Virus record (IMG/VR): IMGVR_UViG_2537562192_000011
Strand: one strand, 5' to 3'
DNA length: 9,540 nt
Source of the DNA: a virus
Taxonomy: Duplodnaviria; Heunggongvirae; Uroviricota; Caudoviricetes
Part shown: positions 6,001 through 9,000 of the stretch, piece after piece
How the letters are laid out: each line of letters opens with the position of its first letter
How positions within the stretch are numbered: the first letter of the stretch is position 1
Made by a program: the position numbers

Positions 6001-9000
6001 GCACCGTCCCGCCACGCCCTTAATCATTACCGTGCCGCCGTACTGGTCGCGGTAAATATCACCGCGCGTAAATTTAGGGTGAGTGTTGCCACTGGCAGTT
6101 AAGCCAGAATATTTAAATTTCATTATTTTTATTCTCCGGTGTGCTGTTCGTTATATCTGTCGTGCAATTGGTCTATTTCTTGTAGTTCCATTATTACAGG
6201 CTCAAGAAGCGTTATTAATGCCGTGACAATTCTTGATTTTTGTTTGTCGCGTTCATTGTCGCCAAGTGTTTCAAGCCATATGCGCAATATTTCCATCATA
6301 TTTTCACTGTGAGAAAGTGCAAGAAATACGCGATCTGTTGTTTCGTGGTAAATATCACGCATATTAATCCCCGTCCGTCGCTTTTCTTAAAATAACCTCT
6401 GTCACGAAATCAGCATAGTTAGCGGCAATATCAAGAATATTTAGCCCTGTATCTCTGTGCTCATCAGTGCAAAGAAAGAAAAAAGCCACCCGCATAATTT
6501 CAGATATTGACGAAAGCGCATCAGCCGCATCATCAGAAACGCCGGAAAATTCTTGTTTCAGGGAATTAAAACGATCATCACGCATAACCCCCCCCATTTT
6601 CACAATCAGCAATCAGGATAGCTTTGGCCTCATTCAGCGCCATATCAGCACTAAGTTGCATAACCGCCAGCGAATGAGGAACGAAAGCCCCTGCATATTC
6701 TGTTTCACTGGTGGCGTGCTTATGCGCCCTGTCAGCAATAACAGAAATATCAATAAGCGCGTGCATCAGCGTAGTGAGCGCGGCGGCTGCTGCGTCCGGT
6801 GTGGTTTTATTGTGCATAGGTTTCTCCCTGGCGAATACGGGCTGCAAATACAGCAACACAACCGGACGGGCAACGGCTACGCGCTTCGCGTTCCGTCCAG
6901 GCGGTTACGTGGATGATTTGAGATTCTCCGGCACTCAGTGCCAGAAAACGCCACACAAAGGCCGTTTGTGTGTGTGCTAGTCGTGGGGTATGATTTACGG
7001 CAACCATAAATTTACCTCTCTATAGTGTTTGTGGTTAGACGCCCTGCATGTGTTCCAGCACTGTGGGGCGTTGTTTTTTGGTGCAAGTCACCTTGAAATC
7101 TAGGTTACTTTTAGGTGACTTGCACTTCAAGTCTTTTTTTATTTTTTTTTCTCCGTATACTGAACACCACCTAACAGTAAGGAGAACAGAGATGCCAACA
7201 GGTACAACCAACAACAAGTCACAACAAAAAACTGCTAGAGTACCTCTAGACGTTTTAAGCGAAATGAATTTGGTAAAAGAAGAAAACGAAACAGACGCAC
7301 AATTTATCGTTACTGCCATGCGCGGCGAAATCAAACGCCGCCAGCGTCGCAAGGCCAAAGAATCAGAATAATCACTATCAGCGCCGTGGTGTGAGGTACT
7401 CCGGCGCATTGCTTTACAGGAACACACAATGACCAACAAAGAATCAACCAATACACCATCGCAAAAAACGAACAGAGAGCACGAAAATATGGCGCTCGAG
7501 CATGAATCAGAAAGATTCGCACCATGCGCTTTTGTCCTTGATGAGTTTCTAAAAAAATATTCACGTTCTGAACGGATGAAAATGGCAGCACAATACGGCC
7601 CCAACAAGCAAGATAATTGCCCACCAGCCTGATCGCGGTTATCATGCCCGGGCTTATGATTGTTGACACATACGGCGCAGCGGGTTAATTGTTCAGAAAG
7701 GTGGCTCCATTTCGGGGCCGCTTTTTTTATGTTCATCATTTGCCCTATATATGTTAAGCGGTCGTTCCGCGCGCTTCTTGTTCGCGTTCTTTCATCCATG
7801 CGATTACGTCTTCCTCATACCATCCGCGACGGCGCAAACCGACACGAAAACCCTGCGGGAATTCTCCGGCGTTGATCATGCTTTGCAGCGTGCTGTCTGC
7901 CTTAATGTGGATAAGTTTTTTTACTTCCTGGCGAAAGATGACTTTTTTGATTGCTTCCATCGTGATTTACCTCATTAATCCGGTGTATTCCGGTGTATTC
8001 CGGTGAGAAATACGGTAAATCATCGGATGCAGGGAAAAACAGTACTCACCGTTTTTAAACGGTATACACCATTTTTTATATTGATGATTTGAAAGGGATT
8101 TATAAAAAAAGCGGCATTTCTGCCGCTTTCAGGATTGTTACCGCCATTTTTTTGGCCTGCCTCCGGTCTTCATGGATGCCGGACGTACAACCTTATCAAT
8201 ACTTACAGCCAGATTTCTGGAAGCCCCACGGGATACCAGGAAATCTACTACCTGTTTTTTTGATGGGGCCGTCGTTCTGTCCTCCGGATCGTAGGTTGAC
8301 CAAAATTCATGCTGAACCATCAGGGCCAGTTGCAGCCCGTCGCAATTGCATCTGAAATTTGTTTGCATCTTAACAGTTTCATTTTTCAAGGCCTCGTCGT
8401 TAAATGTGATGCAATTATACGACGGTTTTAAATGGTTTTCGTAGTTTTTACTGGTTTTCTGTACAGCTAAACGGCTCGGATACCCCTTTTACCACTGGCG
8501 AGGGTTACGCCCGTCGCCGCAGCCTCGACAAATTCGCCCCACCAGCGCATAAGCACGATGCGTTTTTCTATGTAGTTGCTCCGGTTGTATGCCCGTCTGA
8601 CTTCGTTGGTGTCGACGTGGGCAAGTGCGGCCTCTATTACGTCCGGCTCAAAGCCTTCTTCGTTCGCTGCTGTGCTGAATATGGCGCGTAATCCATGAGA
8701 CACCAGCACGCCAGCGAATCCCATGCGTCGTAATGCTGCGTTAGCGGTCTGGCTGTTCATCGGCTGCTGTGGGTCTTTCAGACTCGGGAAAACATAATCG
8801 CGGTGGTGGCTGATTGGTTTCATAGCCTCCAGCACTGCCATAGCCTGGTCACAAAGCGGGATAACGTGGTCGCGGCGCATCTTCATGCGTCCGGCGGGTA
8901 TGGTCCAGCGTTGCGCTTCCATGTCGATTTCTTCCCAGCGTGCCGACGATGCTTCAACGGGACGGGTTACGGTCAGTAACTGCCATTCAATCAGTAATCT

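What the first reader, a model, noticed from the sequence alone, without database searches (positions are those of the whole stretch)
6578..6612. G8 homopolymer at the junction of two overlapping, translationally coupled small genes
On the minus strand the run 6588-6595 is G8. It encodes the GGG at the C-terminus of the upstream gene and sits 2 nt before the ATG (6583-6585) of the downstream gene, where it may act as its SD. Losing one G would fuse the two ORFs into a single protein of about 150 aa. So it is either a slippage-prone switch (phase variation or frameshift) or a sequencing indel hiding a single gene.
Basis: seen in the sequence. Interest (0 to 1): 0.5.

Follow-up and report, generated by a model that had tools for sequence, protein, structure and literature searches.

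The report
Hypermutable poly-G gene junction in satellite
A run of eight Gs at the boundary of two small genes in an E. coli phage-satellite island is a real mutational hot spot whose length (5-13 Gs) differs between otherwise identical islands, so the two genes are either separate, as here, or fused into one 150-residue protein.

Summary
On the minus strand, G8 lies at 6588-6595, then TT, then the ATG of gene B (6585-6583). Gene A ends GGG GGG GGT TAT GCG TGA, so its stop overlaps B's start (ATGCGTGA). Removing one G gives a 150-aa fusion.

The window is a tRNA-Pro-integrated PICI-type E. coli satellite: integrase, AlpA, Icd-like, A, B, C, DUF4222, D5 primase, SSB and a protease-capsid fusion.

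It is not a sequencing error. The exact 79-aa A protein is on 523 contigs. For one A allele, every tract length from G5 to G13 exists in public assemblies. Two Swiss genomes match a US genome over 9,540 nt except G9 versus G8.

In 90 IMG/VR loci, 27 are fused, 42 are split with the ATGCGTGA overlap, and 21 are split with a 9-aa tail on A.

Distant relatives have stand-alone A-like and B-like genes with ordinary GGAGG Shine-Dalgarno sites and the same kind of stop/start overlap. So two coupled genes look ancestral, and the window is in that state.

Best reading: the tract is B's Shine-Dalgarno sequence embedded in A's 3' end, and ordinary replication slippage changes its length. B keeps its own start, so all three frames appear tolerated.

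Adaptive phase variation is possible but unproven. Programmed recoding is not supported. The function of A and B is unknown.

The parts
6588..6595 (-). Poly-G tract (G8 in this window). It encodes Gly75-77 of A and lies 2 nt upstream of B's ATG. Its length is polymorphic (G5-G13) in relatives.
6578..6817 (-). Gene A, 79 aa, predicted helical hairpin, function unknown (phrog_5146, or the N-terminal half of phrog_2512). Its ATG overlaps the stop of the Icd-like gene.
   Evidence: pN/pS 0.31
6364..6585 (-). Gene B, 73 aa, predicted helical, function unknown (phrog_24341, or the C-terminal half of phrog_2512). It has its own ATG, which is invariant in the 17 aligned fused homologues, and it is a stand-alone gene in distant relatives.
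   Evidence: pN/pS 0.47
6578..6585 (-). ATGCGTGA start/stop overlap (start of B, stop of A). The same overlap motif joins B to the next gene in 38 of 90 related loci.
6129..6362 (-). Gene C, 77 aa (phrog_2196). It also starts ATGCGTGAT and is the next module of the small-gene array.
6807..7007 (-). Icd-like gene directly upstream of A (context: early operon of the satellite).
4073..6123 (-). DUF4222 gene (5824-6123) and D5-type primase (4073-5827) downstream in the same operon (context).

Best explanation
The G8 run is the Shine-Dalgarno-like element of gene B, and it lies inside the last codons of gene A. Both genes belong to the early, primase-containing operon of a PICI-type E. coli phage satellite.

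Because the element has become a long G homopolymer, ordinary replication slippage (slipped-strand mispairing) changes its length far faster than point mutations accumulate. This gives three interconvertible heritable states:
- 3n+2 Gs (G5, G8, G11): A ends ...YA* and its TGA overlaps B's ATG (ATGCGTGA). This is the canonical two-gene, translationally coupled arrangement, and it is the state of this window.
- 3n+1 Gs (G7, G10, G13): A and B fuse into one 150-152 aa protein, with the Gly run as a linker between two helical hairpins.
- 3n Gs (G6, G9, G12): A gains a 9-residue out-of-frame tail, and B is made only from its own ATG.

B keeps its own start codon and ribosome-binding site in every state. 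So all three states probably deliver both polypeptide modules, and only their covalent linkage and stoichiometry differ. That would explain why all three are common in nature.

Shown:
- the anatomy of the junction;
- the length polymorphism;
- near-saturation of tract length relative to flanking substitutions;
- separate A-like and B-like genes in distant relatives;
- purifying selection on both halves.

Inferred:
- the Shine-Dalgarno role of the tract;
- translational coupling;
- functional equivalence of the three states;
- replication slippage as the mutational mechanism.
For: Anatomy.

Fused homologues: more than 100 distinct E. coli proteins of 150-156 aa cover 97-100% of a hypothetical A+B fusion. 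Their junctions read CEN-GG-V, -GGG-V or -GGGG-V.

Split homologues are equally common. The exact 79-aa A is on 523 contigs, its G9 form (86 aa) on at least 1000, and the exact B on at least 1000.

Exact-sequence census of the O157-type A allele, in contigs:
- G5: 24
- G6: 70
- G7: at least 1000
- G8: 912
- G9: 140
- G10: 41
- G11: 19
- G12: 4
- G13: 2

IMG/VR loci, 90 in all: fused 27, split with overlap 42, split with a 9-aa tail 21. Every junction is a G run or a once-interrupted G run.

Hypermutability:
- Pairs of loci with 0 differences in 390 nt of flank differ in tract length in 24 of 40 cases, against 72% for random pairs.
- 6 of 11 groups with identical flanks hold more than one tract length.
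- NZ_CP027586 (USA) and NZ_CP075632 (Switzerland) are identical over 9,540 nt except G8 versus G9. A second Swiss genome, NZ_CP075665, also carries G9 at this site.

Two genes look ancestral:
- The profile search finds stand-alone B-like proteins that align from residue 78 = M1, and stand-alone A-like proteins ending ...VGHA* or ...AHHA* with no homopolymer.
- In L089 the B-like gene follows the Icd-like gene directly. In L091 it follows an unrelated gene through an ATGTATGA overlap with a GGAGGG Shine-Dalgarno site.
- In L100 the A-like gene ends CAG GAG GTG GGG CAT GCA TAA. A GGAGGTGGGG Shine-Dalgarno site therefore occupies the position of the poly-G tract.
- About 240 complete E. coli genomes match only from B's ATG onward.

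The ATGCGTGA overlap recurs at the B/C junction in 38 of 90 loci.

Shine-Dalgarno plausibility: the duplex with the anti-SD is -11.1 kcal/mol for G7-G9, against -10.0 and -11.6 for the relatives' sites.

Both halves are under purifying selection (pN/pS 0.31 and 0.47). B's ratio is the same in split loci (0.48) and fused loci (0.47). None of 55 loci has an internal stop.

The AlphaFold2 model shows two helical hairpins joined by a linker at residues 74-79, which is the tract.

Indel rates in E. coli rise exponentially with homopolymer length (PMC8510543).
Against: - No expression data exist. Production of B from its own ATG, translational coupling, and equivalence of the fused and split forms are all inferred.
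- The spacing between the 3' end of the G run and the ATG is only 2 nt. The Shine-Dalgarno pairing must therefore use the 5' part of the run.
- Census counts are inflated by clonal over-sampling (O157:H7 and other STEC) and are capped at 1000 contigs.
- The sequencing platforms of the IMG/VR and complete genomes are unknown. Some individual tract lengths could be homopolymer miscalls, although reproducibility across hundreds of assemblies argues against this as the main cause.
- The fused form dominates some successful lineages (O157:H7, O145:H28). The fusion could therefore be the selected functional state there.
- The structure model has low confidence (pLDDT 64.7).
Confidence: 0.7

Rival explanations
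1. Adaptive contingency locus (true phase variation). The tract is kept by selection because stochastic switching between fused A-B and separate A + B changes a satellite phenotype, such as helper-phage sensing or interference, replication control or toxicity. That would give bet-hedging.
For: - The G run is retained across alleles down to about 74% protein identity, even though GGG is not the only way to encode a Gly linker.
- Every one of 90 junctions is a G run or a once-interrupted G run.
- Related islands carry several other length-polymorphic poly-G runs, all on the coding strand.
- The window has a second G9 run.
- Long G:C runs are otherwise outliers in E. coli.
Against: - The fraction of in-frame (fused) states in IMG/VR loci is 27/90, close to the 1/3 expected with no selection on frame.
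- In a spread sample of complete genomes, the O157:H7 and O145:H28 clones were uniformly G7, so switching is not obviously rapid within clones.
- The observed rate is what ordinary slippage at an 8-9 nt run in a repair-proficient cell would give. This is an inference.
- No phenotype is known, and no paper on this tract was found.
Confidence: 0.2
2. The fused 150-aa gene is the only functional form. G8, G9 and the other out-of-frame states are loss-of-function frameshift alleles of a dispensable gene, that is, pseudogenisation at a hot spot.
For: - Fused forms are numerous and diverse.
- They are fixed in major lineages such as O157:H7.
- PHROGs holds a full-length family, phrog_2512.
Against: - B-like and A-like proteins are independent genes in distant relatives that have no homopolymer.
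- The G8 state reproduces exactly the ATGCGTGA overlap used at the next junction.
- B's start codon is invariant in the 17 aligned fused proteins.
- B's pN/pS is the same in split and fused loci, and none of 55 loci has an internal stop.
- All 9 tracts 'locked' by an interrupting base are in split frames. These represent only 4 distinct alleles, so this is not significant.
Confidence: 0.1
3. Programmed recoding. RNA polymerase slippage or ribosomal +1/-1 frameshifting on the G run makes both A and an A-B fusion from one allele, as in dnaX, IS elements or the phage G/GT tail chaperones.
For: - A run of 8-9 identical bases could allow some slippage, and G GGG GGG formally fits the X XXY YYZ slippery-site pattern in the G9 state. 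Both points come from the sequence and from general knowledge.
- All three frames being tolerated would also follow if the mRNA or the translation were heterogeneous.
Against: - Programmed sites conserve both length and frame relation. Here the length ranges from G5 to G13 and all three frames are common.
- No downstream stimulatory structure is predicted: MFE -33 kcal/mol against -36.5 for shuffles, z = 0.86.
- There is no Rfam match.
- From my own knowledge, known E. coli transcriptional slippage sites are A/T runs.
- Distant relatives have no slippery run at all.
Confidence: 0.05
4. Sequencing or assembly indel: the true sequence is G7 and a single gene.
For: - Homopolymers are classic error sites.
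- Many homologues are fused.
Against: - The exact G8 product of this allele is on 523 contigs, and its G9 product is on at least 1000.
- Related outbreak genomes agree with each other: 95NR1 and 95JB1 are both G8.
- O157:H7 genomes were consistently G7 in the spread sample.
- The G8 frame is the canonical overlap frame.
Confidence: 0.03

Closest known systems
Simple-sequence-repeat (homopolymeric tract) contingency loci, i.e. slipped-strand-mispairing phase variation as in Neisseria, Haemophilus, Campylobacter and Helicobacter
   Same: A poly-G run of at least 7 inside coding sequence. Its length is polymorphic between near-identical genomes, and length changes shift the reading frame.
   Different: - The host is E. 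coli, which is repair-proficient and poor in long G:C runs.
- The outcome is not ON/OFF of one gene. It is fusion versus separation of two genes, and the downstream gene keeps its own start.
- High-frequency switching within a clone and a phenotype are not shown. O157:H7 genomes looked stable at G7.
Translationally coupled overlapping genes (ATGxxTGA or ATGA stop/start overlaps with the Shine-Dalgarno sequence inside the upstream ORF), typical of phage and satellite operons
   Same: The G8 state has an ATGCGTGA overlap with a G-rich anti-SD-complementary element inside A. The same architecture is seen at the B/C junction and in relatives.
   Different: Here the Shine-Dalgarno element is a long homopolymer, so the coupling geometry itself is mutationally unstable.
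Programmed frameshift or transcriptional-slippage genes (dnaX, IS3-family orfAB, phage tail chaperone G/GT, prfB)
   Same: Two overlapping ORFs that a one-base shift at a run of identical bases would join into one product.
   Different: Neither tract length nor frame relation is conserved. No stimulatory structure is predicted, and the shift is fixed in the DNA, not made during expression.
PICI / capsid-forming PICI phage satellites of Enterobacteriaceae (int-alpA-primase left arm; PMC10085698)
   Same: The window carries an integrase, an AlpA-like regulator, a D5-type primase and a prohead protease/major capsid fusion. It is integrated at tRNA-Pro. A and B sit in the small-gene array between the Icd-like gene and the primase.
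   Different: No portal, terminase or head-tail adaptor gene is seen in the roughly 10 kb between tRNA-Pro and yejO. It therefore does not meet the full cfPICI core set. Helper dependence was not tested.

Membership tests
SSR-mediated phase-variable (contingency) locus | Homopolymeric or short-repeat tract of mutable length (at least about 7 for G/C) within or just upstream of an ORF | tested here: met
   G8 at 6588-6595 inside the 3' end of A
SSR-mediated phase-variable (contingency) locus | Tract length varies among closely related or otherwise identical genomes | tested here: met
   G5-G13 for one allele. 60% of pairs with identical flanks differ in tract length. Islands identical over 9,540 nt differ only G8 versus G9.
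SSR-mediated phase-variable (contingency) locus | Length change alters the reading frame or the expressed product | tested here: met
   Fused proteins of 150-156 aa versus 79/86-aa A plus 73/77-aa B. This holds at the level of predicted proteins only.
SSR-mediated phase-variable (contingency) locus | High-frequency, reversible switching within a clonal population | not testable with these tools
   It needs read-level or fluctuation data. Indirectly, the O157:H7 complete genomes in a spread sample were all G7, which argues against very high rates.
SSR-mediated phase-variable (contingency) locus | Switching changes a selectable phenotype | not testable with these tools
   The function of A and B is unknown. 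There are no Pfam hits, the PHROG families are 'unknown function', and there are no fold matches.
Programmed ribosomal frameshift / transcriptional slippage site | Slippery sequence of conserved length and a conserved frame relation between the two ORFs | tested here: not met
   Length ranges over G5-G13 and all three frame relations are common.
Programmed ribosomal frameshift / transcriptional slippage site | Stimulatory element (downstream hairpin or pseudoknot, or an upstream Shine-Dalgarno sequence at a defined spacing) | tested here: not met
   The fold of 6500-6640 (minus strand) is no more stable than its shuffles, z = 0.86. There is no Rfam match.
Translationally coupled overlapping gene pair | The upstream stop codon overlaps or abuts the downstream start codon | tested here: met
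   ATGCGTGA at 6585-6578. The same motif is found at the B/C junction of 38 of 90 loci.
Translationally coupled overlapping gene pair | A ribosome-binding element for the downstream gene inside the upstream ORF | tested here: met
   The G run pairs with the 16S 3' end at -11.1 kcal/mol, comparable with the GGAGG sites of relatives. This is computational only.
Translationally coupled overlapping gene pair | The downstream ORF is an independent gene in homologous operons | tested here: met
   Stand-alone B-like genes lie after Icd-like or unrelated genes in L089 and L091. About 240 E. coli genomes match only from B's ATG onward.
PICI / cfPICI phage satellite | Integrase, AlpA-type regulator and primase/replicase in a conserved order | tested here: met
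   The AlpA hit is below Pfam's cut-off (17.8 against 21 bits), but PGAP calls the gene an HTH regulator.
PICI / cfPICI phage satellite | cfPICI-specific packaging set (capsid, protease, portal, head-tail adaptor/connector, terS/terL, HNH) | tested here: inconclusive
   Only a ClpP-protease/major-capsid fusion gene is present. No portal or terminase is annotated before yejO.
PICI / cfPICI phage satellite | Induction and packaging by a helper phage | not testable with these tools
   This requires an experiment.

The most novel reading that the evidence does not exclude
The poly-G runs of this satellite family are selected contingency loci. They include the A/B junction, the G9 at 3025-3033, and the further polymorphic runs in related islands. 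Stochastic fusion and fission of A and B would then diversify a clonal E. coli population in how its satellite responds to, or interferes with, helper phages. That would be SSR-based bet-hedging in a phage satellite, in a species usually thought to lack such loci.
Probability: 0.15. Interest if true: 0.7.

Novelty: new member of a known kind. Interest (0 to 1): 0.4.

Why it matters
The junction region is found in about 900 of 5,426 complete E. coli genomes, including O157:H7, O145 and other STEC. So this is a widespread hot spot, not a rarity.

Practical consequences:
- It explains why annotation pipelines call one gene, two genes or three different PHROG families for the same locus.
- It warns against 'correcting' the G8 to a single gene.

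Biological interest:
- It is a clean natural example of a ribosome-binding site that has turned into a homopolymer and now toggles a gene pair between coupled and fused forms.
- If the switch affects satellite-helper interplay, it would be a new layer of variation in phage satellites.
- If it does not, it is a useful neutral marker of very recent divergence between otherwise identical islands.

Tried and rejected
- **Pfam:** scans of A, B and C gave no family.
- **PHROGs:** only 'unknown function' families.
- **P4 orf151 idea:** I suspected the fused protein might equal the orf151 gene of satellite P4, which lies between epsilon and alpha. tblastn of the fused protein against 50,697 phage records, which I assumed would include P4, gave no match at all, so the idea was dropped.
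- **Paralogy of A, B and C:** BLASTP gave no alignment.
- **Structure:** the AlphaFold2 model has only pLDDT 64.7. Foldseek against BFVD and the PDB gave only generic helical bundles, E > 0.1, which is uninformative.
- **RNA:** no Rfam family in the window, and no stable RNA structure around the tract.
- **Cross-species scan:** the GTDB species representatives gave only one locus, in Shigella, because the peptide patterns used were too specific.
- **Census by BLAST identity bands:** using G7, G8 and G9 queries against complete genomes failed. Partial 100% matches starting at B's ATG contaminate the >=99% band. It was replaced by exact-protein look-ups and a spread sample.
- **Literature:** searches for a described poly-G, phase-variable or frameshift feature in E. 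coli satellites found nothing relevant.
- **Ribosomal frameshift models:** a prfB-like +1 shift and a G GGG GGG -1 shift were considered. Both were rejected because length and frame are not conserved.
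Full report
**1. The observation**

Read on the minus strand, the window shows ...GCT GAT TGT GAA AAT GGG GGG GGT TAT GCG TGA TGA TCG....
- The run of eight Gs occupies 6595-6588.
- Two Ts follow, then ATG at 6585-6583.
- ORF A (ATG 6817 to TGA 6580-6578, 79 aa) ends ...ILIADCENGGGYA*.
- ORF B (6585-6364, 73 aa) begins MRDDRFNSLKQEF.
- B's ATG lies inside A's last three codons, so start and stop form the 8-nt overlap ATGCGTGA.
- B is in the +1 frame relative to A. Deleting one G gives ...CENGGVMRDD..., a protein of 150 aa.

A G8 run is not expected by chance. Shuffles give 0.22 matches per window. 8-bp G:C runs are described as outliers in the E. coli genome (PMC8510543).

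**2. Context**

The window matches NZ_CP027586 (E. coli 2012EL-2448) at 9,539 of 9,540 positions. It is a roughly 10-kb island inserted next to tRNA-Pro, between yejM and yejO.

All the following genes are on the minus strand of the window:
- integrase (8467-9540)
- AlpA-like HTH regulator (7754-7960)
- Icd-like gene (6807-7007)
- A, B and C (6129-6362)
- DUF4222 (5824-6123)
- D5-type primase (4073-5827)
- a 92-aa ORF
- SSB (3087-3509)
- a ClpP-protease/major-capsid fusion (540-2429)

This is the left arm of a PICI/cfPICI-type phage satellite (PMC10085698). The full cfPICI packaging set is not present. PGAP annotates A and B as two hypothetical proteins.

**3. What homologues do**

A search with the hypothetical fusion found more than 100 distinct E. 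coli proteins of 150-156 aa that cover 97-100% of it at 74-99% identity. Their junctions read CEN-GG-VM, CEN-GGG-VM or CEN-GGGG-VM. These correspond to G7, G10 and G13.

Split forms are just as common:
- The exact 79-aa A is on 523 contigs.
- An 86-aa form is identical up to CENGGG and then reads LCVMIVLIP*. This is the G9 frame, and it is on at least 1000 contigs.
- The exact B is on at least 1000 contigs.
- A CENGGGGYA form (G11) also exists.

PHROGs accordingly holds three families for one locus: phrog_2512 (fused), phrog_5146 (A) and phrog_24341 (B). All three are of unknown function.

I built the nine products predicted for G5-G13 of the O157-type A allele and looked them up by exact sequence. 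All nine exist. Contig counts are 24, 70, at least 1000, 912, 140, 41, 19, 4 and 2 for G5 through G13. The distribution is unimodal with tails in both directions, as slippage would give.

**4. DNA-level confirmation and rate**

A pattern scan of IMG/VR returned 85 loci with the conserved flanks. A permissive scan that allowed any 3-18 nt between the flanks returned 90. The junctions break down as follows:

| Junction | Loci |
|---|---|
| G7 | 23 |
| G8 | 34 |
| G9 | 18 |
| G10 | 4 |
| G11 | 2 |
| Run interrupted once by T or A | 9 |

No junction lacks a G run. By frame, 27 are fused, 42 are split with the ATGCGTGA overlap, and 21 are split with a 9-aa tail on A.

The fused fraction (30%) is what no selection on frame would give.

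Tract length is almost uncoupled from the flanking haplotype:
- 24 of 40 pairs with no difference in 390 nt of flank have different tract lengths, against 72% for random pairs.
- 6 of 11 groups with identical flanks hold more than one length.
- In finished genomes, the island of the Swiss strain 2018-166 is identical to that of the US strain 2012EL-2448 over all 9,540 nt except G9 versus G8. A second Swiss genome, STEC2018-553, also carries G9 and the same gene annotation.

The tract is therefore the fastest-changing site in the element, by roughly three orders of magnitude over an average site. That figure is my inference from these comparisons.

It is not wildly unstable, however. In a spread sample of 899 matching complete genomes, all O157:H7 and O145:H28 records carried G7. 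There the gene is annotated as one 154-aa protein. This behaviour fits ordinary replication slippage at a long run, whose rate rises exponentially with run length in E. coli.

**5. Which state is ancestral?**

An exhaustive profile search found only 62 cluster representatives, so the family is small.
- Many are stand-alone B-like proteins of 75-77 aa whose first residue aligns with residue 78 of the fusion.
- Others are stand-alone A-like proteins of 72-84 aa that end ...ADIQEVGHA*...GAHHA* or ...VDHA*, with no Gly run.

Their loci confirm independence:
- In L089 the B-like gene follows the Icd-like gene directly, through an ATGA overlap with an AGGAGG Shine-Dalgarno site.
- In L091 it follows an unrelated 69-aa gene, through an ATGTATGA overlap with a GGAGGG site.
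- In L100 an A-like gene is followed directly by a C-like gene. It ends CAG GAG GTG GGG CAT GCA TAA, so the next gene's Shine-Dalgarno site (GGAGGTGGGG) sits exactly where the window has its G run.

About 240 complete E. coli genomes match only from B's ATG onward.

The nonamer ATGCGTGAT starts both B and C in the window, where 0.14 occurrences are expected by chance. In 38 of 90 loci the B/C junction is AGC CAT GCG TGA, the same overlap as A/B in the G8 state.

The two-gene, overlap-coupled arrangement is therefore the ancestral design. The window's G8 reproduces it, and the 150-aa protein is a derived fusion that the tract makes and unmakes.

**6. How it probably works**

The G run pairs with the 3' end of 16S rRNA about as well as the relatives' GGAGG sites do: -11.1 kcal/mol against -10.0 and -11.6.

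I conclude that the tract is B's ribosome-binding element, and that it drifted from a G-rich Shine-Dalgarno sequence to a homopolymer. Because it lies inside A's coding sequence, every slippage event also changes A's frame relative to B.

B's ATG is invariant in the 17 aligned fused proteins. Both halves are under purifying selection (pN/pS 0.31 and 0.47). B's ratio is the same in split loci (0.48) and fused loci (0.47). None of 55 loci has an internal stop.

The AlphaFold2 model has low confidence (pLDDT 64.7). It shows two helical hairpins joined by a short linker at residues 74-79, which is the tract. Two hairpins could plausibly assemble whether or not they are covalently joined. This would explain why all three frames persist.

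The steps from 'Shine-Dalgarno element' to 'functional equivalence' are inferences. No expression data exist.

**7. Rivals**

- *Adaptive phase variation* is not excluded. The tract is retained across diverged alleles. Related islands carry several more polymorphic poly-G runs on the coding strand, some again directly before start codons. The window has a second G9. Against it stand the neutral-looking frame distribution, the stability within clones and the lack of any phenotype.
- *'Only the fusion is functional'* conflicts with the stand-alone relatives and with the selection data.
- *Programmed recoding* fails its defining tests. Length and frame are not conserved, and there is no stimulatory structure or Rfam hit.
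- *A sequencing artefact* is excluded as the general explanation by reproducibility across hundreds of assemblies and by consistency within lineages.

**8. Known or new**

Full-text searches found no description of this tract, or of SSR variation in E. coli satellites.

The mechanism, slipped-strand mispairing at a homopolymer, is a well-known kind. The particular outcome is a hypermutable Shine-Dalgarno sequence that toggles a coupled gene pair into a fusion, in an E. coli phage satellite. That makes it a new member of the kind with an unusual twist.

The function of A and B remains unknown.

**Verdict**

The 'hidden single gene' reading is wrong for this window.

Interest is moderate, at 0.4. 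It would rise if switching were shown to affect satellite-helper biology.

Noticed in passing
window 3025-3033 (minus strand): A second long homopolymer, G9. It is intergenic, about 30 nt downstream of the terminator-like hairpin that follows SSB (about 3060-3085) and upstream of the capsid operon. It is identical in L001, L093 and L094. L009 has G8 in a near-identical context, so this run may also vary in length.
   Followed up: partly
L004, L029, L032, L042, L053, L059, L068 (about +343 nt from the main tract); L014, L048, L057 (about +2760); L010, L032 (about +5000); L031 (+4122); L072 (-1689): Related islands carry further poly-G runs of 7-10, all with G on the coding strand, and they vary in length between islands. 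Several lie 2-5 nt before an ATG or GTG (e.g. aattacG8-10atATG, G7aataATG), so they are Shine-Dalgarno-like. Poly-G ribosome-binding sites seem to be a habit of this satellite family.
   Followed up: partly
window 6354-6362 and 6577-6585 (minus strand): The nonamer ATGCGTGAT begins both B and C (2 matches against 0.14 expected). In 38 of 90 related loci the B/C junction is AGCCATGCGTGA, the same stop/start overlap as at A/B. BLAST matches in other genomes begin exactly at this ATG, so the motif may mark module boundaries where the small genes are shuffled.
   Followed up: partly
window 1843: The window has G where NZ_CP027586 and NZ_CP075632 have A (GGAAAGAATT versus GGAAAAAATT), inside the protease/capsid fusion gene. 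This is the only substitution in 9,540 nt, so the window comes from a different but nearly identical strain.
   Followed up: no
window 540-2429 and L001 11431-13859: Of the head genes, the island encodes only a ClpP-like prohead protease fused to a major capsid protein. No portal, terminase or adaptor gene is annotated before yejO. It therefore does not fit the full cfPICI core set, although it has the PICI left arm.
   Followed up: no
proteins P0056, P0057, P0059 (224 aa): In some E. coli contigs a further 74-aa upstream ORF (MSQEITLQQAAERAH...) is fused in frame to the A-B fusion. Fusion and fission of these small helical modules is therefore not limited to the poly-G junction.
   Followed up: no
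IMG/VR loci L021, L033, L080, L095, L098, L035, L096, L097, L099: Nine tracts are interrupted by a single T or A (GGGGGTGG, GGGGTGGG, GGGGGGGGTGG, GGGGAGGGGGGG), which should stabilise them. All nine are in split frames and none is fused. Only four distinct alleles are involved, so this is not statistically significant.
   Followed up: partly
window 6807-6817 (minus strand): A's ATG overlaps the end of the Icd-like gene (ATGCACAATAA). The whole Icd-like/A/B/C array is thus chained by start/stop overlaps or 1-nt spacers.
   Followed up: no
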